This document shows positions 7,891 through 15,053 of a stretch of DNA of 15,061 nucleotides, in pieces. Each line of letters opens with the position of its first letter. Position 1 is the stretch's first letter. Origin of the DNA: a virus. The notes beneath the pieces were generated by a model. The model was not told where the DNA came from and searched no databases. It was given only the letters and a program-made list of their open reading frames with translations. Where the stretch lies: the IMG/VR virus record IMGVR_UViG_3300021400_000072; one strand, written 5' to 3'. The position numbers and the translations under genes were made by a program.

Positions 7891-8400
7891 ATGAATCTAT
7901 TATAGACAATTGAAAAAATTATTCATCAAATTCGTCCTTTTGAAGGTATTAGTTCTTGTGTAATTTTTATTTTATTTATAATCGGCACAGTAATACAAAT
8001 TTCTCCTATAAAAATTAATCCTTGGGATTTTTTATTAGGGTGGATAGGAGAAAGATTTAATTCTGGAATTAATAAAAAAGTAGGGCAGTTAGAAAAGAAA
8101 ATAGATTAGCATATAGAAAGTAGTAAGAATAAAGATTTAAAATAGCAAAGATAGTATATTATTTCCTTTGTCGATGAAGGTGTTAATGGAAAACGACATA
8201 CAAAAGAATCTTTCTAGAATGCGATACGAGCTTGTGATGCATATGAGAAATATGTTCGTTAGAATGATATTGAAAATGGCGTTATCGTATCTTCTATTAG
8301 TGCCATTAGATTAAAATATGAACAACATTTAATTAATGCTGATTTTGCAACAGGCGAACATTATGTTGAAAATGCTAAATAGATGCAAAATGAAAACTGA
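7891..8400 (+). CDS. Membrane protein, holin-like: N-terminal hydrophobic helix, then coiled-coil/charged region. Contains 7 in-frame TAGs (7903, 8107, 8143, 8152, 8215, 8260, 8380).
   Basis: RBS aaaaggggagataa + ATG 7891; 169-codon frame with 7 TAG and zero TAA/TGA until TGA 8398; reads naturally if TAG is Gln (KIDQHIESS..KQQRQYI..FQNAIRACDAYEKYVRQND); flanked by terminators on both sides. Confidence 0.55.
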
Positions 8401-8470: not shown

Positions 8471-8519
8471 CAAAAAGCCTCGATATGAGTCATATTCATA
8501 TCGAGGCTTTATTTTTTTA
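8471..8519. terminator. Bidirectional rho-independent terminator (15-bp perfect stem aaagcctcgatatga/tcatatcgaggcttt flanked by A5 and T7 runs) between convergent genes
   Basis: Direct inspection; separates + holin-like gene and - vWA gene. Confidence 0.85.
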
Positions 8520-10022
8520 TCTAATTACGGCATATCTTTCACTATTAATAGCTTCAAGCATTAAGTCGTAACCTGTCTTACCAGTAATAACTTGCTTGAA
8601 AATAGTAGGAGACATACCGCTTACAAACGATACATTAGGACCTGCATCCAGGATTGTATTCTGGCGGGCATCCACATTCCAATAGACCAGCTTAGGAAGC
8701 TGTAGGCCATAAGCTGCCCACTTCTGACGAATCTTCTCCATCTCTGTTGAAGCAGAACGCTTTGTCCAATGACTATCACTCCAATAACCAGTACCACTAT
8801 CAATTTCCATATCAGAAATAACTACAATGGTCTTAGGAATGTCACTCTGCTTAACACCTCTCTTAGTTGCTGTCTTTAGAAGTAAATCAAATACAGCTTC
8901 TAGGTTAGTATTATCACAAAGATTTGTCTTGTAGATACGGCGAGCCTTATCTACAAAATCAATACCTTCTGTCTTAATCAGCTGAGGATGTGAAGCAAAA
9001 CTAATATAGTAATTCTTAAAAGGACCACCAATACGTTCTGCGCAATACAAACCTAGACTGATTGCTACGTTAAGAGGAGCCGCCGCATCTTTACCAGTCA
9101 TAGAACCAGAAGTATCTACGACACACATCATGCTACAATCCTTACCATTAAGATAATCAGGAAGATTATCCCAATACTTATTAATCATAGCACGTTCAGT
9201 TTCACTAAGAGCCTCAAAGTTGTAAGACCATGTTGAAGCCTTAACTGCCTTAGCTACCACTTCATAAGGGTAAAGTACAGAAGCATTAACCTTTGTATTC
9301 TTATCTTTTGCAAAAGATTCATACTTCTTAGCGATAATATCACGTCTTGCAAAAGCATTACGATAAATAATACCTGCGCGAGAAGGAATCTTATCAAACT
9401 CAATCTTATCCCATTCGTTGGCGGACATCAGTCTTTCAAGAACATTAATCTTAACTCTTAGCTTTGAAAGCATCTGACGATACTGCTTAGAAGTAACTCC
9501 TAAATACTGTCTAATCTTCTTTGCTCTTGCAATTGTTTCCTTACTTGAAGCATTTTCAGAAGGAAGCCACTTAGCGATAAGGCTAATACCATTCTTCTTA
9601 CATGCCATATCCTCACGAAGCTGCTTTTCAATAAGAGCCATTACATTCTTTTCAACAGGAGTGTCGAAAAGTTCGAACAGGTCATCATATCTACCATATT
9701 CAGGAAGATATTCAATCAAGTTACGGGCGCGGGCAGGCTTGTTCTCTGCCAACCAGCGGAAGCATGTACGGAAGAATCTACGTTCACCCTGACCACCACG
9801 GCAGTCACGAATATAGAATAGACACTTCAGTGCAAGAACTGAATCCTCTTCAAAGGCGTTCTTGAAAAGAAGGATACAATCTTCGTCTGTACGCTTACGA
9901 TAAGCGGCACCCATAGCAAACAATGTATAAACGTCACTATTTAACTTTTTATAAGCGAGTGCTCCATTCTCTGTTCTCTTGTAATTGAAATCGTTTGAAA
10001 GCTGATTCATAAATGTATTCAT
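8517..10022 (-). CDS. vWA-domain protein with MIDAS motif (VVDTSGSM). Its N-terminal alpha-helical module resembles the DUF2828 family and the TROVE (Ro60-like) module (TENGALAY...LFAMGAAYRK).
   Basis: 501-aa uninterrupted ORF; DxSGS MIDAS signature near residue 300; N-terminal motif pattern similar to the Ro60 N-x-x-G-x-x-A-F...L-F/I-x-L-G motif; family assignment from memory, not searched. Confidence 0.7.
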   Translation of the reverse strand: MNTFMNQLSNDFNYKRTENGALAYKKLNSDVYTLFAMGAAYRKRTDEDCILLFKNAFEEDSVLALKCLFYIRDCRGGQGERRFFRTCFRWLAENKPARARNLIEYLPEYGRYDDLFELFDTPVEKNVMALIEKQLREDMACKKNGISLIAKWLPSENASSKETIARAKKIRQYLGVTSKQYRQMLSKLRVKINVLERLMSANEWDKIEFDKIPSRAGIIYRNAFARRDIIAKKYESFAKDKNTKVNASVLYPYEVVAKAVKASTWSYNFEALSETERAMINKYWDNLPDYLNGKDCSMMCVVDTSGSMTGKDAAAPLNVAISLGLYCAERIGGPFKNYYISFASHPQLIKTEGIDFVDKARRIYKTNLCDNTNLEAVFDLLLKTATKRGVKQSDIPKTIVVISDMEIDSGTGYWSDSHWTKRSASTEMEKIRQKWAAYGLQLPKLVYWNVDARQNTILDAGPNVSFVSGMSPTIFKQVITGKTGYDLMLEAINSERYAVIR

Positions 10023-10047
10023 AATCCTTTTATCTCCTTTACTTTTG

Positions 10048-10251
10048 TCAAAGTATGTCTTTATTTAAATTGGAAAATTTTCTTACTCTTTCTTCAAATG
10101 TCATATTTGGAGTAGCTATTGCAATTGAACGTGCTTTTAAATATCCTAATGCTGTACATCCTTTATGATTTTTAGCATATAAAATTGCACGCTTACATAG
10201 AATAAGACTCATTCCAGTTTTTTCTCTTAATATTTTTACTTTTTTTATCAT
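10048..10251 (-). CDS. Small hypothetical protein (67 aa); faint resemblance to a UBA-like / EF-Ts N-terminal fold (LREKTGMSLILCKRAI)
   Basis: ORF only; sits between the vWA gene and the tRNA array on the same strand. Confidence 0.3.
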   Translation of the reverse strand: MIKKVKILREKTGMSLILCKRAILYAKNHKGCTALGYLKARSIAIATPNMTFEERVRKFSNLNKDIL

Positions 10252-10352
10252 ATTTAAAAAATAAATTTTATTCTTTGCCTATCTATTTCTCTGCAAATAA
10301 GTAATTTTATTAAAAATAATTTTGTTTTCTTTTTCATAAAATACTCCTTTAA

Positions 10353-10424
10353 TACTCCCAGCGGGAATCGAACCCACATCGAAGGCTTAGAAGGCCTTTG
10401 CTTTATCCTTTAAACTATAGGAGT
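10353..10424 (-). tRNA. tRNA-Arg (anticodon TCT)
   Basis: Hand-folded cloverleaf: 7-bp acceptor (one G-U), T-loop TTCGATT, anticodon stem AAGGC/GCCTT, loop CTTCTAA. Confidence 0.7.
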
Positions 10425-10520
10425 ATAATAAGGCTCTTTGCTACTTCTTTTCCCAACCTTCTGAGTGATGGTACTTACACAGCGGTTCGCTTCAGATTTT
10501 CAGAATTACCTTATATTAAA

Positions 10521-10592
10521 TATCCCATACAAGAATCGAACTCGCATTTTTAGGGCCGTAACCTAACGGTTTATCCATTAGCCTAATGGGAT
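10521..10592 (-). tRNA. tRNA-Arg (anticodon ACG), slightly atypical (G37, one D-stem mismatch)
   Basis: Perfect 7-bp acceptor ATCCCAT/ATGGGAT; anticodon stem TTAGG/CCTAA, loop TTACGGC; T-loop TTCGATT. Confidence 0.55.
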
Positions 10593-10597
10593 ATAAT

Positions 10598-10667
10598 TGC
10601 GCCACTACGAATCGAACGTAAATCTCCCCCGTATGCAAGGGGGTATGTTACCATTACACCACGGCGC
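10598..10667 (-). tRNA. tRNA-like with 8-nt anticodon loop TTGCATAC (contains CAT; Met/Ile2-like with one extra nucleotide). Possible pseudogene or noncanonical tRNA.
   Basis: Acceptor GCGCCGT/GTGGCGC (two G-U pairs); anticodon stem CCCCC/GGGGG enclosing 8 nt; 4-bp T-stem; positions 8-9 are GG. Confidence 0.4.
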
Positions 10668-10772
10668 GAGCATTTATCATATTTTTTGTTTGTTTACGGT
10701 TAGCTACTCCGCACCCTAAACAACTTTTTTGATAAATGTTAATACAATACATTAATTAACTTTTGTACTAAA

Positions 10773-10845
10773 CAGGAGCGGAAGGATTCGAACCTTCATA
10801 ATCACGGTGTTGGAGACCGTTGCTGTACCATTGAGCCACGCCCCT
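10773..10845 (-). tRNA. tRNA-Trp (anticodon CCA)
   Basis: Perfect T-stem GAAGG/CCTTC with TTCGAAT loop; anticodon stem ACGGT/ACCGT, loop CTCCAAC; 7-bp acceptor with one G-U. Confidence 0.7.
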
Positions 10846-10852
10846 TTAGTTT

Positions 10853-11272
10853 TTAACGATACCCGTTAGAAAACCCAGGAAGATTACAATACTCACGAAT
10901 AAATTCTTCAGGAGAATTATTAAAAAGACCATCTAACTGTTCAAGAGAAAGATTAGTTTCTTTTACAATAGGATAAATCTCATACTGGAGATTTTCGCTC
11001 ATAAGTTCATTAAGAACATCGGTATATTCATCATCTGCTCCTGAAGTAGAATCTTCCATATATTCATCTAATTCATCTTCATCCCAACCTATTTCGTTGG
11101 CGGCAGCCGCTTCCAAATCATCCATAATAGAAGAATATTCTTCCATAATAGCATAAGACTCGTCAATAGCCATTTCTTCAACTTCTTCTTCAGTACCCTC
11201 TGCAACAAAATAGGATACCATTCCGTGCATTCCATTATACATCTGTTCACAAGCGATTACTGCATAAAGCAT
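10853..11272 (-). CDS. Highly acidic protein (139 aa, D/E-rich), possible DNA-mimic/anti-restriction-type protein (speculative)
   Basis: RBS aaaggaag 9 nt upstream; stop TAA; very high Asp/Glu content in translation. Confidence 0.5.
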   Translation of the reverse strand: MLYAVIACEQMYNGMHGMVSYFVAEGTEEEVEEMAIDESYAIMEEYSSIMDDLEAAAANEIGWDEDELDEYMEDSTSGADDEYTDVLNELMSENLQYEIYPIVKETNLSLEQLDGLFNNSPEEFIREYCNLPGFSNGYR

Positions 11273-11552
11273 AGTTTAAATCTTCCTTTCTTTTTTTAAT
11301 AATGCACACCACAAAATTGTACACAGGTTAAATACATGTGATGTGCTATAACCTGTTTTGCCTAGCGTTTCAGATGTGTTTTAGTCCTAATTTATTTAGG
11401 ACAATCACGCATAGTCCCATTCACATCAGGGGCTTTAGGTCTCACTGTATGTAGCCGGATTCACCCTTCCTATCCCCCACTCATACAGGATGGTTGATCG
11501 TTTTTATACCGCATCTCCATTCTACGGTCAACCGAGCATTTGACTCAGTTTA

Positions 11553-11635
11553 AGCCAGCAATAGGATTTGAACCTATATCGTTTTAGGCCTTACACTCCT
11601 TGGGGGAGCCGCTTTACCAATTAAGCTATGCTGAC
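11553..11635 (-). tRNA. Type II (long variable arm) tRNA-like, anticodon CAA (Leu) by position but with poor anticodon-stem pairing; possibly degenerate
   Basis: Good acceptor (GTCAGCA/TGCTGGC), D-arm GCTT/AAGC and T-arm ATAGG/CCTAT. The anticodon region folds best as a CTCC/GGAG stem with a 5-nt loop. The variable arm forms no clear hairpin. Confidence 0.4.
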
Positions 11636-11643
11636 ATTTTTAG

Positions 11644-11715
11644 CAGGCCCAGATGGAATCGAACCATCACATCGTGAGTCAAAGTCACGTGCGCTAGCCG
11701 TTACGCTATGGGCCC
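11644..11715 (-). tRNA. tRNA-Gln (anticodon TTG)
   Basis: Anticodon stem CGTGA/TCACG, loop CTTTGAC; T-arm GATGG/CCATC; acceptor GGGCCC/GGGCCT. Confidence 0.7.
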
Positions 11716-11734
11716 ATATACAAGAGACATTATT

Positions 11735-11806
11735 AGTAGACCGCGGGATTCGAACCCGCATATCAAAATTCGCAGTTTTGTATCTTATCCATTAGATTAA
11801 ATCCAT
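11735..11806 (-). tRNA. tRNA-like element with intact T-arm, anticodon arm (loop CTGCGAA, anticodon GCG) and D-arm, but a 5' acceptor strand that cannot pair with the 3' strand; probable pseudo-tRNA or tRNA mimic
   Basis: T-stem GCGGG/CCCGC, anticodon stem CAAAA/TTTTG, D-stem ATCT/AGAT all perfect; expected 5' strand GGTCTAC is absent (observed ATGGATT). Confidence 0.35.
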
Positions 11807-11884
11807 TAATTTTTTTTATTGCTGTGTGTCTCTTTATCAACTTTCTATATATATTATAATAAAAATTTTTATTTTTTTCAAATA

Positions 11885-11959
11885 AGCACAGAGTGGGATT
11901 TGAACCCACGAATAACGGTTTTGCAGACCGCTGCGGTAACCAGGCTGCGCCATCCGTGC
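11885..11959 (-). tRNA. tRNA-Cys (anticodon GCA)
   Basis: T-stem GTGGG/CCCAC; anticodon loop CTGCAAA; 7-bp acceptor with one G-U. Confidence 0.7.
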
Positions 11960-11963
11960 AAAA

Positions 11964-12003
11964 GAAAGGGATATGAAACGTATAAATTTCATACCCTTTT
12001 TTA
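11964..12003. terminator. Hairpin terminator (about 13-bp stem with one bulge, loop cgtataaa, T-runs on both sides) between - gene 12006..12194 and tRNA-Cys
   Basis: Direct inspection. Confidence 0.6.
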
Positions 12004-12005
12004 AA

Positions 12006-12194
12006 TTAATCGACCGATTTTACTTCAATATATTTAGGCTTGATTAAAACCTGTTTCTGTAATGCATGAGTTATCTGGAACATGCGGAAACGTGCTTCCC
12101 GCCTAGCTTCATCTCGTTCTTTTTTATTCTCAATATCATTAACAGGATTAAAAGATTCCAATGCATTAGTGCCTATTGTTTTCCACTTAGACAT
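12006..12194 (-). CDS. Small basic hypothetical protein (62 aa)
   Basis: ORF with RBS aaggagag upstream; followed (transcript sense) by a hairpin terminator. Confidence 0.4.
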   Translation of the reverse strand: MSKWKTIGTNALESFNPVNDIENKKERDEARREARFRMFQITHALQKQVLIKPKYIEVKSVD

Positions 12195-12208
12195 TAATAA
12201 ACTCTCCT

Positions 12209-12556
12209 TTAGTTAAGAAAATCCTTCAAAATTCTTTCAAATTCATTGCTGGTAATAGGAGTCGCTACAGGTCTCTTTTCTTTCTGCGAAGGTGACTCCA
12301 GAACAGCTTCTACTAAATCTACCAGCAAAGGATTTTCATTTTCATATGTTTTAACATATTTAAGAATTTCTTTATTAAGAGCCTGAATCTTTTCTTCAAG
12401 GTTTGCTTTTGCGATAGCCTTTTCTGCTTCAAATCTACGTTTTTCTTCTGCTTCTTTACGTTTCTCTTCTGCTTCTGTCTTCTTTTTGAGTTCAGCTTCA
12501 ATACATTCTTTTTCTGAATCAAAAATCTCATCCAGAACTTCACTATAAAATTTCAT
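12209..12556 (-). CDS. Lys/Glu-rich coiled-coil hypothetical protein (115 aa)
   Basis: RBS gagaggaaaaaagaATG; charged heptad-like EEKRKEAEEKRR repeats. Confidence 0.5.
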   Translation of the reverse strand: MKFYSEVLDEIFDSEKECIEAELKKKTEAEEKRKEAEEKRRFEAEKAIAKANLEEKIQALNKEILKYVKTYENENPLLVDLVEAVLESPSQKEKRPVATPITSNEFERILKDFLN

Positions 12557-12597
12557 TCTTTTTTCCTCTCTTTTTTAAAATATTTTTATTAACGAAA

Positions 12598-12671
12598 GGT
12601 GGCTAACGGGACTTGAACCCGTAACAGGCGGTACCACAAACCGCTGGACTACCAAATTGTCCTATAACCAC
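12598..12671 (-). tRNA. tRNA-His (anticodon GTG), discriminator C
   Basis: Anticodon stem GCGGT/ACCGC, loop TTGTGGT; T-stem ACGGG/CCCGT; discriminator C73 as expected for His. Confidence 0.7.
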
Positions 12672-12673
12672 AG

Positions 12674-12747
12674 CTGGAGTGGTGAGACTCGAACTCACGG
12701 CATCGTGATCCCAAATCACGCATTCTAGCCAACTGAATTACACCCCA
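12674..12747 (-). tRNA. tRNA-Pro (anticodon TGG)
   Basis: Anticodon stem CGTGA/TCACG, loop TTTGGGA; D-stem ATTC/GAAT; T-stem GTGAG/CTCAC; 2 nt from tRNA-His. Confidence 0.7.
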
Positions 12748-12806
12748 ATATACAAGACACATAAATAAGTATTGATCTACCCATTGATCTATTTTGTCTA
12801 TTCTGG

Positions 12807-12851
12807 CAACAAAAATCGGATTTGAACCGATAACATATACTAAACGTATAA
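12807..12851 (-). tRNA. tRNA 3'-half remnant (acceptor 3' strand + T-arm) followed by a short hairpin; no matching 5' half
   Basis: T-stem ATCGG/CCGAT with ATTTGAA loop; no complementary acceptor strand downstream; flanked by attgctgtgtgtgtc motif. Confidence 0.3.
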
Positions 12852-12880
12852 ATTGCTGTGTGTGTCTTATTATTAAATTA

Positions 12881-13114
12881 TTAACCTAACATAGCAAAAT
12901 CTATAAATCTTTTTACATCATCTGCATTATAACAAACCAATTCCATCTCAGGAATATTTGAATCTTCAAACATCTTAGCAAAAGCAATATATTGAGTAAG
13001 ACGACTCTTTAGATTTAATCTATCGCCTTCTTCTGTTACTAATTCAACTTTTCCTGTACACTTATCAACTGTTTCAAAAAACTTTTTAATATCATTAATA
13101 TGATATAACTTCAT
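12881..13114 (-). CDS. Small hypothetical protein (77 aa)
   Basis: RBS aaaaggagaataaATG; stop TAA. Confidence 0.45.
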   Translation of the reverse strand: MKLYHINDIKKFFETVDKCTGKVELVTEEGDRLNLKSRLTQYIAFAKMFEDSNIPEMELVCYNADDVKRFIDFAMLG

Positions 13115-13235
13115 TTATTCTCCTTTTATATAATCTCTATAAGTACAATATTCTTCAAACGTTCCTTTGAAGCCATTTTCAACAGCCTTAGAATATTCTT
13201 CATTTAGAACTTTTGAATAACTTATAGATTCCTAA

Positions 13236-13541
13236 TTAAACTACATAACCGATTGCTAACTCATCTGTATACTCTCTTTCTCTTGCGGTCATTGCAAGAA
13301 AACGTTTAATGTCAGAATGGCTCCACCAGTGTCCGCCATGTCTACCTTTTTCTTCTCCAAACGCCGGTCTACGCTTAGAAACTTTAGGTTTACAAAGAGA
13401 ACATGAACAATGAATTTTACCTTTACTATACTGATGAAGGTGAGGATACCATTCACTACCATCTCTTTCTTTACAAATTTTCTGCTTTCTGATTGCCTTT
13501 GTCCAATCATTATGTCTCTTTTCTGCAAGTGTTCTACACAT
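13236..13541 (-). CDS. Cys/His-rich small protein (101 aa), probable zinc-binding; embedded in tRNA array
   Basis: Internal ATG (13539-13541) has RBS aaggag 8 nt upstream; the longer ORF-track start (13616) would overlap tRNA-Ser; CSCSLC ... HGGHWWSH motifs. Confidence 0.45.
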   Translation of the reverse strand: MCRTLAEKRHNDWTKAIRKQKICKERDGSEWYPHLHQYSKGKIHCSCSLCKPKVSKRRPAFGEEKGRHGGHWWSHSDIKRFLAMTAREREYTDELAIGYVV

Positions 13542-13574
13542 GATAAACTCCTTTGAAACTAGGTTAACAGAAAG

Positions 13575-13659
13575 CGGTGCGAGAGGGATTCGAACCCCCA
13601 GCCCAATTAAGAGCAACGGTTTTCAAGACCGCACCTCCTCCCCACTAAGGTACCGCACC
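13575..13659 (-). tRNA. tRNA-Ser (anticodon TGA), type II
   Basis: 85 nt; anticodon stem + loop CTTGAAA; long variable arm; T-loop TTCGAAT. Confidence 0.65.
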
Positions 13660-13842
13660 ATATCAAGGCTTAAAAAGTTTCATTTTCTCTTTTTTCAGAG
13701 GTCAATTCCTATTAAGAATAAGAAATAGAAAACTTTCAAATAAAAGAAACTTGTCTATTTTACGACCAAAATTCTCCTAAGAATCATGTTAAATCTTGTA
13801 ATTTTAAACCCATTAAAAATAAAATTGCCGTATAAGCCTTAG

Positions 13843-13930
13843 CGCGGATGAGTGGATTCGAACCACCGGACCCAAATGTAGGGTCAATACCTTAGCAGGG
13901 TACCGCATTAAACCTCTCTGCCACATCCGC
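13843..13930 (-). tRNA. tRNA-Ser (anticodon GCT), type II
   Basis: 88 nt; perfect acceptor GCGGATG/CATCCGC; variable-arm hairpin GACCC/GGGTC; anticodon loop CTGCTAA. Confidence 0.7.
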
Positions 13931-13939
13931 AAATTGGGA

Positions 13940-14012
13940 TAGCCCGCCGGAGAATCGAACTCCGATTTCTGGTTTTAGAGACCAGCGTCTTAAACCGTTT
14001 GACCACCGGGCC
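13940..14012 (-). tRNA. Amber suppressor tRNA (anticodon CTA, decodes UAG); type I, amino-acid identity not determinable by eye
   Basis: Perfect 5-bp anticodon stem CTGGT/ACCAG with 7-nt loop CTCTAAA (U33, anticodon CUA, A37); perfect T-stem CGGAG/CTCCG with TTCGATT loop; acceptor 6/7 bp. Confidence 0.7.
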
Positions 14013-14137
14013 ATACCAAGACAGATTAAAAATTGCTTTAATTAGATTACAAGTCCAATGCAAAAATTAAAATAGATTGCTGTTTCTGTCTTTCATCTTA
14101 TAAATATATTATATAATAATTTTTTTAAAAAATCAAA

Positions 14138-14211
14138 TGCATGATATAGGATTTGAACCTATGCCCCTTTCGGTGTAAACGAAATGCTCATCCCAGCTGA
14201 GCTAATCATGC
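14138..14211 (-). tRNA. tRNA-Val (anticodon TAC)
   Basis: Perfect acceptor GCATGAT/ATCATGC; anticodon stem TTTCG/CGAAA, loop TTTACAC; D-stem GCTC/GAGC. Confidence 0.75.
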
Positions 14212-14379
14212 ATATTGGCGGGAAACTCCCGCCTAATCCGACTTTTGAGTTTCACAGGTATCGGGGAGGAACCAGGGATTAAATCCAGCCCACCTTAATA
14301 TTTAGTTTCCCATCTCCTCGGGGTAACTAACAAACCTGAGGGTCTTCCATATCGCACGTGCATATTGATATAGAATAAA

Positions 14380-14455
14380 TGGACCGTGTGGGAATTGAAC
14401 CCACCTGATTTTCTGTGTGCAAGACAGATGACCACCCCGTGCAGTCCCACAGCCC
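14380..14455 (-). tRNA. tRNA-Ala (anticodon TGC)
   Basis: Anticodon stem TCTGT/ACAGA, loop CTTGCAC; T-stem GTGGG/CCCAC; acceptor GGGCTGT/ACGGTCC with two G-U; 7-nt variable region. Confidence 0.55.
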
Positions 14456-14681
14456 AGTACTAAGAGGCTTGATTACCCTCTTTACAGCAGTTTGATCCTG
14501 CTTGCCGATGACGTTATAGGTCCGCCGCCCGCACATTTATTTGCTAAAACACGGTTTCCAGGGTATCTTTGTATAATCACATTACCGCAAAGAGGTATAT
14601 ACCTTTATCATATTATAGACGCGTTTCTATAATATTCTCCCAAATTTTTTATTGTACATAGATGGTAAAGAGACAATAAAA

Positions 14682-14755
14682 TACTACGAAGTGGACTCGA
14701 ACCACTGACGACTTCCTTATCAGAGAAGCATTCTAACCTACTGAATTATCGTAGT
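14682..14755 (-). tRNA. tRNA-Ile (anticodon GAT)
   Basis: Perfect acceptor ACTACGA/TCGTAGT; T-stem AGTGG/CCACT; anticodon loop CTGATAA. Confidence 0.75.
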
Positions 14756-14969
14756 AAATAAGGGTTAAAAGGAAAGGAAAATGCATTTTTACTTCGTAAT
14801 AACCTTTCTCAGTTAACCATCTAATTTTTATGCCTGTCTAGCCTTATACTAGAATATTACATATGCGATAAGTTGTTCTGTTGCATCGCTATTTTGAACT
14901 ATCCCTGTCTCCTTATCAAAATTAGACACCTTTACTATATTTCAAGGCTTTTTGCGGCGTCCCGCTTAG

Positions 14970-15053
14970 TCCTGGGAGAGGGAATCGAACCCACTCGGTG
15001 CCGAAGCCATGGGATTTACAGTCCCACCCGTCTCCTTAGCGGTCTACCCCAGG
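14970..15053 (-). tRNA. tRNA-Tyr (anticodon GTA), type II
   Basis: 84 nt; anticodon stem TGGGA/TCCCA, loop CTGTAAA; long variable arm; T-stem has one mismatch. Confidence 0.6.

What the first reader, a model, noticed from the sequence alone, without database searches (positions are those of the whole stretch)
8517..10424. vWA/MIDAS protein with DUF2828- and TROVE/Ro60-like N-terminus sits directly beside the tRNA and tRNA-like array
The 501-aa protein combines an alpha-helical N-terminal module, whose first conserved motif resembles the Ro60 TROVE signature, with a C-terminal vWA domain carrying DxSGS. In bacteria and mycobacteriophages, Ro60 orthologues are encoded next to tRNA-mimicking Y RNAs (YrlA), often inside tRNA clusters. 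Here the protein is on the same strand as, and about 330 nt from, an array that contains several aberrant tRNA-like elements. A Ro60/Y-RNA-like RNP, or an RNA quality-control factor for the suppressor system, is a testable hypothesis.
Basis: partly seen in the sequence, partly recalled or inferred. Interest (0 to 1): 0.55.

Follow-up and report, generated by a model that had tools for sequence, protein, structure and literature searches.

The report
Ro60-like phage protein ending a tRNA array
The gene encodes a divergent, phage-type relative of the Ro60 RNA-binding ring protein, placed as the last gene of a tRNA gene array. Its family is already annotated and has been partly studied, but its RNA partner and mechanism remain unknown.

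Summary
ORF 8517-10022 (-) encodes a 501-aa DUF2828 + DUF7788/vWA protein with a complete MIDAS motif. It lies 329 nt downstream of, and on the same strand as, a 17-gene tRNA array.

No sequence test recovers TROVE for the N-terminal half. Fold comparison does: Ro60/Rsr structures are the best PDB matches for the whole protein and for the N-terminal domain modelled alone.

The family is large. It is already called "Ro-like RNA binding protein" (phrog_850). It includes Bas63 gp130, which a preprint reports as a counter to the Ppl defence system.

- **tRNA linkage:** across about 125 loci, 63% have a same-strand tRNA within 2 kb, and 97% of nearby tRNAs are co-oriented.
- **Neighbours:** RlaP nucleotidyltransferase, phosphoesterase and RNA ligase genes recur beside the gene.
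- **Y RNA:** no YrlA-type RNA is detectable, although a positive control scored.
- **ROOL RNA:** a ROOL RNA lies in the same array in this phage's own contig, just outside the window, and in 9-10 related loci.

The Ro60-like reading is supported. A Y-RNA partner and a suppressor-specific role are not. This is a new member of a known kind, of moderate interest.

The parts
8517..10022 (-). Ro60-like protein gene, 501 aa plus a TAA stop; DUF2828 + DUF7788/vWA family, phrog_850
   Evidence: ORF list and translation. Pfam and PHROG matches. Ro60 is the best PDB fold match. The exact protein is found on an 87-kb metagenome scaffold.
9147..10022 (-). N-terminal all-helical domain (aa 1-292), TROVE-like by fold only
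8520..9134 (-). C-terminal vWA-type domain (aa 297-501, DUF7788) with a MIDAS motif; D303-T-S-G-S307 is encoded at 9102-9116
   Evidence: Pfam DUF7788 E 5e-36; VWA_2 sub-threshold. D303, S305, S307, T372 and D404 are invariant in alignment A2. hhalign to the Ro60 vWA gives E 2e-4.
8474..8510 (.). Bidirectional intrinsic terminator, 7 nt after the stop codon; it closes the minus-strand tRNA/Ro-like unit against the convergent plus-strand late genes
   Evidence: The terminator scan finds a 15-17 bp stem with T-runs on both strands. The sequence was read directly.
10048..10251 (-). Small ORF (67 aa) between the last tRNA and the Ro-like gene; function unknown
   Evidence: ORF list. Only a weak EF-Ts_N match, E 0.021 and below cut-off. 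No PHROG match. Conserved in L003, L004 and L005 but replaced in L001/L002.
10352..15053 (-). tRNA array of 17 genes, including an amber suppressor CTA at 13937-14013, interspersed with small ORFs; the array continues beyond the window edge
   Evidence: ARAGORN and Rfam. The window's own contig, L129, shows 25 tRNAs in the 10 kb upstream of the gene.
11853..11881 (-). Best sigma-70-type promoter upstream of the gene on the same strand (TTGAAA-17-TATAAT); inferred start of the transcript that ends with the Ro-like gene
   Evidence: The promoter scan scores 11 of 12. The element recurs in relatives and lies directly upstream of the Ro-like gene in L014, L024, L026 and L033.
14108..14136 (-). Second copy of the same promoter-like element (TTGATT-17-TATAAT), just after tRNA-Val
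   Evidence: The promoter scan scores 10 of 12. Copies are found in many related loci.

Best explanation
**What it is.** The ORF encodes a divergent Ro60-like protein. It has a helical, TROVE-like N-terminal domain followed by a MIDAS-bearing vWA domain. It belongs to the large phage family DUF2828/DUF7788 (phrog_850).

**How it is expressed (inferred).**
- It is the last cistron of a standard-code, minus-strand unit made mostly of tRNA genes.
- That unit appears to be driven by sigma-70-type promoters and closed by a strong terminator.
- In the phage's own contig, a ROOL RNA lies further upstream in the same array.

**What it most likely does (inferred).**
- It binds structured, misfolded or nicked RNAs. 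Candidates are phage tRNA precursors and damaged tRNAs.
- It acts as a chaperone or scaffold that passes them to processing, repair or decay enzymes.
- This would preserve translation capacity during infection and blunt host defences.

**Shown versus inferred.**
- Shown here: family membership, fold similarity, MIDAS conservation, gene order and the recurrent neighbourhoods.
- Inferred: RNA binding, the identity of the RNA ligands, co-transcription with the tRNAs and the physiological role.
For: **Family**
- Pfam DUF2828 and DUF7788 both score above their cut-offs; phrog_850 'RNA-binding protein' matches at E 1e-123.
- The family has 6290 50%-identity cluster representatives at E<=1e-3.
- tblastn finds it in 704 phage records across many host genera.

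**Fold**
- Foldseek: the top 10 PDB hits are all Ro60/Rsr/phage Ro60, aligned full length, E 9e-7 to 1.5e-3.

**tRNA linkage**
- 64 of 102 evaluable loci have a same-strand tRNA within 2 kb.
- 1034 of 1063 nearby tRNAs are on the same strand as the gene.
- tRNA density is 0.85-1.2 per kb upstream and 0.13-0.4 per kb downstream.
- 29 of 43 lineages, defined at 60% protein identity, show the association.
- Independent GenBank lineages show the same layout: A511, PEf771, Felixounavirus and Campylobacter F375.

**RNA-repair neighbours**
- In L034 the gene order is Ro-like, then RlaP (PF10127, above cut-off), then Metallophos, then RNA ligase.
- RNA ligase lies within 10 kb in 14 loci, phosphoesterases in 15 + 15 loci, and an RlaP-like nucleotidyltransferase in 26 loci. 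All are co-oriented with the gene.

**Transcription signals**
- Promoters lie at 11881 and 14136; the terminator is at 8474-8510.

**Literature**
- Bas63 gp130 is 31% identical (E 4e-69) with the same architecture. It counters Ppl and improves T7 plaquing (PMC11482910).
- The Ro60 homologue of Thermus phage phiLo binds Y-like RNAs and host PNPase (PMC12135203).
- The bacterial rsr-yrlA-rtcBA repair operon is induced by damaged tRNAs (PMC7790460, listed).
- ROT/TROVE proteins and RlaP are described as parts of phage RNA repair (PMC7824862).
Against: - No DUF2828 member has been shown to bind RNA.
- Bas63 gp130 works when moved into T7, which carries no tRNA genes. Its authors propose that its target Ppl degrades DNA. 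A phage-encoded RNA partner is therefore not required for that activity.
- 38 of 102 loci have no tRNA within 2 kb, and some actinophage-like lineages have none within 10 kb.
- The window itself has no ligase, RlaP or phosphoesterase next to the gene.
- Shared placement in an early accessory region could explain part of the synteny.
Confidence: 0.55

Rival explanations
1. It is a true Ro/Y-RNA-type particle. The protein has a dedicated non-coding RNA partner encoded in the same array. The partner could be a tRNA-like gene or the ROOL RNA. As with Deinococcus Rsr and Thermus phage Ro60, that RNA would tether the protein to a host exonuclease such as PNPase.
For: - TROVE-type Ro60 genes in bacteria and phages sit next to their Y RNAs (PMC4201824; PMC12135203). 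The ScottMcG control shows this.
- The array contains aberrant tRNA-like genes.
- A ROOL RNA lies in the same co-oriented array:
  - in the window's own contig;
  - in 9 related loci above the Rfam gathering score;
  - in A511 below it.
- L030 has a YrlA-like hit of 31 bits between two tRNAs.
- The Bas63 authors made the same suggestion.
Against: - There is no YrlA in the window: best 20.4 bits, at a tRNA junction.
- There is none at the gathering score in six diverged loci.
- No window tRNA has an extended terminal stem.
- ROOL was found in only 10 of the 44 loci that have at least 5 upstream tRNAs. It lies 1-9 kb from the gene, not adjacent.
- ROOL is already known to accompany tRNA islands, so the co-occurrence may be indirect.
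- gp130 is active in T7, which lacks any such RNA.
Confidence: 0.2
2. It is a protein-directed anti-defence factor. The MIDAS/vWA domain binds and inhibits a host defence protein such as Ppl. The helical domain is only a scaffold, and RNA plays no part.
For: - Bas63 gp130 neutralises Ppl when expressed alone from a plasmid or from T7.
- MIDAS vWA domains are classic protein-ligand modules, and vWA-only proteins fill the fold hit lists below Ro60.
- The MIDAS residues are invariant across the family.
- LeBron gp53, annotated Ro-like, is toxic when overexpressed.
Against: - This does not explain the co-oriented linkage to tRNA arrays in many lineages.
- It does not explain the recurrent RlaP, phosphoesterase and RNA ligase neighbours.
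- The whole-protein fold match is specifically to Ro60, not to generic vWA proteins.
Confidence: 0.15
3. The adjacency has no functional meaning. Both the tRNA genes and this gene are accessory early-region cargo that accumulates in the same hypervariable part of large phage genomes.
For: - The array is full of mobile or variable cassettes such as HNH endonucleases and indels between close relatives.
- Spacing between the gene and the nearest tRNA ranges from 46 nt to several kb.
- Some lineages lack nearby tRNAs.
Against: - The arrangement recurs in Herelleviridae, Felixounavirus, Eucampyvirinae and gut-phage clades whose proteins share only about 30% identity.
- In Campylobacter phage F375 (132 kb), the three tRNAs found in the 21-kb locus lie 247 nt upstream of the gene.
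- 97% of nearby tRNAs are co-oriented, and there is a strong upstream/downstream asymmetry.
Confidence: 0.1

Closest known systems
Bas63 (Escherichia phage JohannRWettstein, Felixounavirus) gp130
   Same: - Full-length homologue: 31% identity, E 4e-69.
- Same Pfam architecture, DUF2828 + DUF7788.
- It sits directly beside a co-oriented tRNA array.
- Its authors noted structural similarity to Ro60 and reported that it counters the Ppl defence.
   Different: - In Bas63 the gene lies upstream of the array by about 165 nt. Here it lies downstream by 329 nt.
- The host and phage lineage differ.
- Anti-Ppl activity has not been tested for this protein.
'Ro-like RNA binding protein' of cluster L mycobacteriophages (Samty gp54; LeBron gp53)
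   Same: - Samty gp54 is in the same family: about 37% identity, and DUF2828 + DUF7788 by Pfam.
- It already carries the Ro-like annotation.
   Different: - Only one tRNA lies nearby in Samty, 1.2 kb upstream.
- These are temperate siphoviruses.
- LeBron gp53 is moderately toxic on overexpression, and LeBron also encodes an RNA ligase and a polynucleotide kinase elsewhere in its genome. I did not test directly whether gp53 belongs to the family.
Canonical Ro60/Rsr (TROVE PF05731 + PF25045 vWA), including mycobacteriophage Bxz1-type Ro and Thermus phage phiLo Ro60 (PDB 9KOP, 9L5Y)
   Same: - Same two-domain order: a helical domain followed by a MIDAS vWA domain.
- Best structural match for the whole protein and for the N-domain.
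- Genomic association with tRNA-like RNAs, tRNAs and RNA repair genes.
   Different: - Different Pfam families in both halves.
- No sequence-profile link for the N-domain.
- The N-domain is about 290 aa here, against about 360 aa.
- No YrlA-type RNA is adjacent here, whereas one is detected next to the TROVE-type phage gene.
- TROVE-type genes in phages are almost all in actinophages (358 records). This family spans many host phyla (704 records).
Phage RNA-repair modules (RNA ligase + RlaP nucleotidyltransferase + end-healing phosphoesterase or kinase; ROT/TROVE as a platform)
   Same: Homologues of this gene are followed by RlaP, Metallophos and RNA ligase genes in the same orientation. This matches the module described for jumbo phages (PMC7824862).
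   Different: - The window carries none of these enzymes next to the gene.
- The RlaP-like gene found between the array and the Ro-like gene in the closest relatives is absent here.

Membership tests
Pfam DUF2828 (PF11443) / DUF7788 (PF25043) family; PHROG 850 | Scores above the curated cut-offs for both Pfam models, and a full-length match to phrog_850 | tested here: met
   DUF2828 scores 94.9 bits (cut-off 29). DUF7788 scores 124.4 bits (cut-off 27.1). phrog_850 matches at E 1e-123 over residues 1-498.
vWA domain with MIDAS | DxSxS motif plus the downstream Thr and Asp metal ligands | tested here: met
   D303-T-S305-G-S307, T372 and D404 are present and invariant in 21 sequences reaching down to 30% identity. 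The generic Pfam VWA_2 model is only sub-threshold at 20.8 against 27.
Ro60 / TROVE (PF05731) | Sequence membership in the TROVE family | tested here: not met
   - No TROVE hit at E<=1.
- The family profile finds no Ro60 chain in the PDB at E<=10.
- hhalign of the N-domains gives P 0.18, equal to the reversed control.
- Full-length hhalign (E 1.3e-4, probability 54%) is carried by the vWA half.
Ro60 / TROVE | Ro60 fold: a helical-repeat N-domain followed by a vWA domain | tested here: met
   - Foldseek: the top 10 PDB hits are all Ro60/Rsr/phage Ro60.
- These are predicted models with pLDDT 74 and 85.
Ro60 / TROVE | Closed ring with a central cavity that threads single-stranded RNA ends, and a basic outer surface for a Y RNA stem | not testable with these tools
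   Model coordinates could not be inspected. TM-scores to Ro60 are only 0.36-0.47 with large rmsd, so ring geometry is unresolved.
Ro60-Y RNA system | A YrlA/Y RNA gene next to the protein gene | tested here: not met
   - Window: best YrlA 20.4 bits, E 0.63, across a tRNA junction.
- None at the gathering score in six other loci.
- Positive control ScottMcG: 36.1 bits, E 1.8e-5.
- No extended stems flank the window tRNAs.
- One possible exception is L030, at 31.2 bits.
Canonical Ro60 C-terminal domain (PF25045) | A match to the Ro60-type vWA model carried by TROVE proteins | tested here: not met
   All 120 listed TROVE homologues carry PF05731 + PF25045. The window protein matches PF25043 instead and shows no PF25045 hit at E<=1.
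Anti-Ppl counter-defence (Bas63 gp130 type) | Neutralises the Ppl defence system | not testable with these tools
   Only homology is shown: 31% identity, E 4e-69. The activity is reported for gp130 in PMC11482910.

The most novel reading that the evidence does not exclude
The DUF2828 Ro-like protein may be the missing protein partner, chaperone, or assembly or turnover factor of ROOL. By extension the same could hold for other large tRNA-island RNAs.

- ROOL is a nanocage-forming phage RNA for which the literature says no protein partner has been identified.
- The proposed arrangement would be a phage counterpart of the Ro60-Y RNA particle.
- The tRNA array, the ROOL RNA, the Ro-like protein and, in some phages, RlaP, phosphoesterase and RNA ligase would then form one RNA-maintenance or counter-defence module.
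Probability: 0.1. Interest if true: 0.85.

Novelty: new member of a known kind. Interest (0 to 1): 0.45.

Why it matters
Phage tRNA arrays are increasingly seen as counter-measures to host tRNA-cleaving defences. What maintains them is unknown.

- A widespread Ro60-like protein is tied to these arrays and, in some phages, to RNA ligase, RlaP and phosphoesterase genes. This points to a conserved phage RNA-maintenance module.
- The module would parallel the bacterial rsr-yrlA-rtcBA operon.
- The family has one functional data point, anti-Ppl activity, and no mechanism.
- ROOL RNA shares the same co-oriented arrays. That gives a concrete and cheap experiment for two orphan problems at once: the ligand of this protein, and any protein partner for ROOL.

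Tried and rejected
**Sequence routes to TROVE**
- Pfam at E<=1, phmmer and family-profile searches of PDB sequences, and three hhalign runs were tried.
- Only the vWA half aligns (E 2e-4 to 1.3e-4).
- The N-domain alone is indistinguishable from a reversed control.

**Other protein and DNA searches**
- NCBIfam gives no hit.
- Megablast of the gene against phage records gives no hit.

**Y RNA search**
- Rfam over the whole window and over 10000-13600 at E<=10 gives only junction artefacts.
- The gathering-score scan of six diverged loci found tRNA and tmRNA matches and no YrlA.
- A first positive control at the gathering score failed. It succeeded in E-value mode.

**Candidate Y-like features in the window**
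- Extended acceptor-like stems around each window tRNA: none convincing.
- The 94-nt spacer at 10426-10519 is absent in close relatives, so it is not a conserved element.
- The 260-nt region 11292-11553 folds somewhat better than shuffles (z -2.5) but matches no family and is a variable cassette.

**Other leads that did not hold**
- ORF67 as an EF-Ts-like factor: E 0.021 and no PHROG match, so too weak.
- Reverse test from ROOL to Ro-like genes in GenBank phages: blastn is too insensitive.
  - The one locus fetched, Aerococcus phage AVP, has 7 tRNAs and no Ro-like gene within 12 kb.
  - Its ROOL could not be confirmed.

**Neighbourhood of close relatives**
- No RNA-repair genes lie next to the gene.
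Full report
**1. What is there**

- The minus-strand ORF 8517-10022 encodes a 501-aa protein that is intact in the standard code and ends in TAA.
- Pfam places it in DUF2828 (PF11443, E 6e-27) and DUF7788 (PF25043, E 5e-36, aa 299-480). The generic VWA_2 model is only sub-threshold.
- PHROGs places it full length in phrog_850, 'RNA-binding protein', at E 1e-123.
- The MIDAS residues D303-x-S305-x-S307, T372 and D404 are invariant in an alignment reaching down to 30% identity.
- The start codon lies 329 nt downstream of tRNA-Arg(TCT) at 10352-10425. This is the first of 17 co-oriented tRNA genes that run to the window edge.
- A 15-17 bp bidirectional terminator at 8474-8510 follows the stop codon.
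- The two best sigma-70-type promoter matches on this strand lie inside the array, at 11881 and 14136.
- I infer from this that the gene is the last cistron of a mixed tRNA-mRNA early unit. It abuts convergent late genes.

**2. Is it Ro60-like?**

Sequence tests say no for the N-terminal half.
- Pfam TROVE gives no hit at E<=1.
- Neither the single sequence nor a family profile finds a Ro60 chain in the PDB at E<=10.
- Profile-profile comparison used verified Ro60/Rsr sequences and 115 TROVE homologues. It aligns only the vWA halves (E 2e-4).
- A lax full-length alignment (E 1.3e-4, probability 54%) is carried by that half.
- The N-domains alone give P 0.18, identical to a reversed-sequence control.

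Fold tests say yes.
- A full-length AF2 model (pLDDT 74) has Ro60, Rsr and Thermus phage Ro60 as its ten best Foldseek matches. All are full-length alignments.
- The N-terminal 292 residues, modelled alone with a deeper alignment, gave pLDDT 85 and pTM 0.75.

Canonical Ro60 proteins carry PF05731 + PF25045. This family carries PF11443 + PF25043. It is therefore a parallel, very divergent architecture. It is Ro60-like by fold but not a TROVE family member by sequence.

**3. How common and how known**

- The family has 6290 50%-identity cluster representatives at E<=1e-3.
- It occurs in 704 GenBank phage records. Hosts include Escherichia, Salmonella, Vibrio, Listeria, Staphylococcus, Campylobacter, Enterococcus, Bacillus and Mycobacterium.
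- TROVE-type Ro genes occur in 358 records, almost all actinophages.
- Mycobacteriophage members are already annotated 'Ro-like RNA binding protein'.
- Bas63 gp130 is a full-length homologue: 31% identity, E 4e-69, same Pfam architecture, directly beside a tRNA array.
- A 2024 preprint makes three points about gp130 (PMC11482910):
  - it resembles Ro60 structurally;
  - it counters the Ppl defence, even when moved into T7;
  - some neighbouring 'tRNA' genes might be Y RNAs.
- LeBron gp53, annotated Ro-like, is toxic on overexpression. LeBron also encodes an RNA ligase and a polynucleotide kinase (PMC13148394).

**4. The tRNA association is real**

- I fetched about 125 loci and scanned them with ARAGORN.
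- 64 of 102 evaluable loci have a same-strand tRNA within 2 kb.
- 1034 of 1063 nearby tRNAs are co-oriented with the gene.
- tRNA density is 0.85-1.2 per kb in the 2 kb upstream and 0.13-0.4 per kb downstream.
- 29 of 43 lineages, defined at 60% protein identity, show the association.

| Phage | Arrangement (all tRNAs same strand as the gene) |
|---|---|
| Listeria A511 | 17 tRNAs upstream, nearest 582 nt |
| Enterococcus PEf771 | 17 tRNAs plus a tmRNA upstream |
| Felixounavirus Mushroom | 24 tRNAs starting about 170 nt downstream |
| Felixounavirus Bas63 | 25 tRNAs starting about 170 nt downstream |
| Campylobacter F375 (132 kb) | 3 tRNAs, 247 nt upstream |

- The association is not universal. 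Several actinophage-like loci have no tRNA within 10 kb.
- It does not depend on suppressor tRNAs.

**5. Other neighbours**

- I clustered the ORFs within 3.5 kb of the gene across lineages. The most widely shared neighbour is an RNA ligase (phrog_968, E 3e-51).
- It is followed by metallophosphoesterases and an RlaP-like nucleotidyltransferase. The rest are homing endonucleases.
- Within 10 kb and co-oriented with the gene:
  - RNA ligase occurs in 14 loci;
  - the two phosphoesterase families occur in 15 loci each;
  - the nucleotidyltransferase occurs in 26 loci.
- In L034 the order is Ro-like, RlaP (PF10127, above cut-off), Metallophos, a small ORF, then RNA ligase.
- In the window's closest relatives the RlaP-like gene sits between the array and the Ro-like gene. 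It is absent from the window and from L003.
- This matches the RNA-repair module described for phages and bacteria (PMC7824862). It also parallels the rsr-yrlA-rtcBA operon.

**6. Y RNA test**

- Rfam finds only tRNAs in the window. The best YrlA score is 20.4 bits (gathering score 69, E 0.63), and it straddles the His/Pro tRNA junction.
- Six diverged loci have no YrlA at the gathering score.
- An equal-sized scan of a TROVE-type mycobacteriophage (ScottMcG) finds YrlA at 36.1 bits, E 1.8e-5. The hit is intergenic, about 190 nt upstream of its Ro gene. The negative result is therefore informative.
- No window tRNA has a Y-like extended terminal stem.
- One relative, L030, has a 31-bit YrlA-like hit between two tRNAs.

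**7. An unexpected companion: ROOL RNA**

- The sensitive scans revealed ROOL RNA (RF03087) inside the same co-oriented arrays.
  - A511 scores 87.5 bits, below the gathering score of 99.1. The hit lies about 940 nt upstream of gp57.
  - Nine IMG/VR loci score 275-339 bits.
- The window's own 87-kb contig contains the window exactly. It carries a full-length ROOL at L129:3033-3579.
  - That position is about 1.4-1.9 kb beyond the window's right edge, on the same strand and inside the array.
  - The nhmmer profile gives E 4e-92.
  - The sequence is 93% identical to the Rfam-validated L004 copy.
- By a sequence profile, which gives a lower bound, ROOL is present in 10 of the 44 loci that have at least 5 upstream tRNAs.
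- ROOL and GOLLD are known to lie near phage tRNA islands and to form RNA-only nanocages. [quoted passage not shown]
- The co-occurrence may simply reflect a shared preference for tRNA arrays. I treat a Ro-like/ROOL partnership as a low-probability hypothesis that would matter a great deal if true.

**8. Verdict**

- The Ro60-like reading is supported at fold level and by genomic context.
- The Y-RNA partner and the suppressor-specific role are not supported.
- The most likely function is an RNA-binding chaperone or scaffold for tRNA-module RNAs, with a counter-defence outcome. This is inferred, at confidence about 0.55.
- The family and the idea are already in annotation and in a preprint, so this is a new member of a known kind.
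- The breadth of the tRNA-array, RNA-repair and ROOL context is the part I did not find described in the literature I searched.

Noticed in passing
L129:3033-3579, the window's own contig. This is about 1.4-1.9 kb beyond the window's right edge, at window-equivalent coordinates of roughly 16444-16990 on the minus strand. Also L004 4-600, L016 3928-4538, L028 3915-4519, L100 484-1079, L094 1965-2561, L009 7591-8200, L008 7467-8061, L010 6551-7189, L036 7563-8166 and L040 (A511) 8507-9058.: ROOL RNA (RF03087) lies inside the same co-oriented tRNA array, upstream of the Ro-like gene. Nine loci score 275-339 bits in Rfam. A511 scores 87.5 bits, below the gathering score. The window's own copy is 93% identical to a validated one. 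The literature reports no known protein partner for ROOL.
   Followed up: partly
window 7891-8397 (+); suppressor tRNA at 13937-14013 (-): A plus-strand ORF with seven in-frame TAG codons and no other stop until TGA. With TAG read as Gln it matches phrog_37604 at E 1e-23 across several TAG positions. Together with the CTA-anticodon tRNA, this indicates TAG recoding of late genes. The Ro-like gene and the array ORFs contain no TAG.
   Followed up: partly
L034 11570-15251; L013 5697-9517; L001 1208-2023: An RNA-repair cassette lies directly downstream of the Ro-like gene in relatives: RlaP nucleotidyltransferase, Metallophos phosphoesterase and RNA ligase. In the closest relatives (L001, L002, L004, L005) an RlaP-like gene sits between the array and the Ro-like gene. 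It has been lost in the window and in L003.
   Followed up: yes
window 10596-10669 (-): A tRNA with an 8-nt anticodon loop (TTGCATAC), which ARAGORN reads as the 4-base anticodon GCAT. It scores 43.5 bits in Rfam. It is conserved in L001 and L002, while the homologous L004 gene is called Ala-TGC. It could be a quadruplet decoder or an altered-loop tRNA.
   Followed up: no
window 11292-11635 (-): An 83-nt Trp(CCA)-like gene with a long extra arm and C33, followed by a 260-nt GC-richer non-coding stretch. That stretch folds somewhat better than shuffles (z -2.5). It is 96% identical in L001 and L002, more conserved than its flanks. It is missing from L003 and L004, so it behaves as a cassette. 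No Rfam family matches it.
   Followed up: partly
window 11853-11881 and 14108-14136 (-); also L014 9905-9956 and many other loci: A repeated, near-consensus sigma-70-type promoter (TTGAxx-17-TATAAT) follows the 3' end of tRNA-Cys and of tRNA-Val. Copies at 82-92% identity recur several times per locus in diverged relatives, including just upstream of the Ro-like gene.
   Followed up: partly
L030 2126-2197 (+): A YrlA-like hit of 31.2 bits (E 0.008) lies between tRNA-Gly and tRNA-Leu in a relative whose Ro-like protein is 51% identical. ARAGORN does not call it a tRNA. It is the only candidate Y-like RNA seen next to a DUF2828-type gene.
   Followed up: no
window 10048-10251 (-): A 67-aa ORF lies between the last tRNA and the Ro-like gene. 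It has a weak, sub-threshold match to the EF-Ts N-terminal domain (E 0.021). Sinorhizobium phage phiM7 annotates a 66-aa 'EF-Ts-like' ORF in its tRNA region, but the two are barely similar (E 0.039).
   Followed up: partly
window, upstream of tRNA-Pro (12748-12772) and tRNA-Gln (11716-11740), and downstream of tRNA-Arg-GCG: A short spacer motif, AUGUCUCUUGUAUAU or a close variant, recurs immediately 5' of several tRNAs. It may be a processing or spacer signal.
   Followed up: no
L041 (Salmonella phage Mushroom, NC_041923) 11543-15603: The record annotates its tRNAs on the strand opposite to the one ARAGORN and Rfam find. By those tools they are co-oriented with the Ro-like gene.
   Followed up: yes
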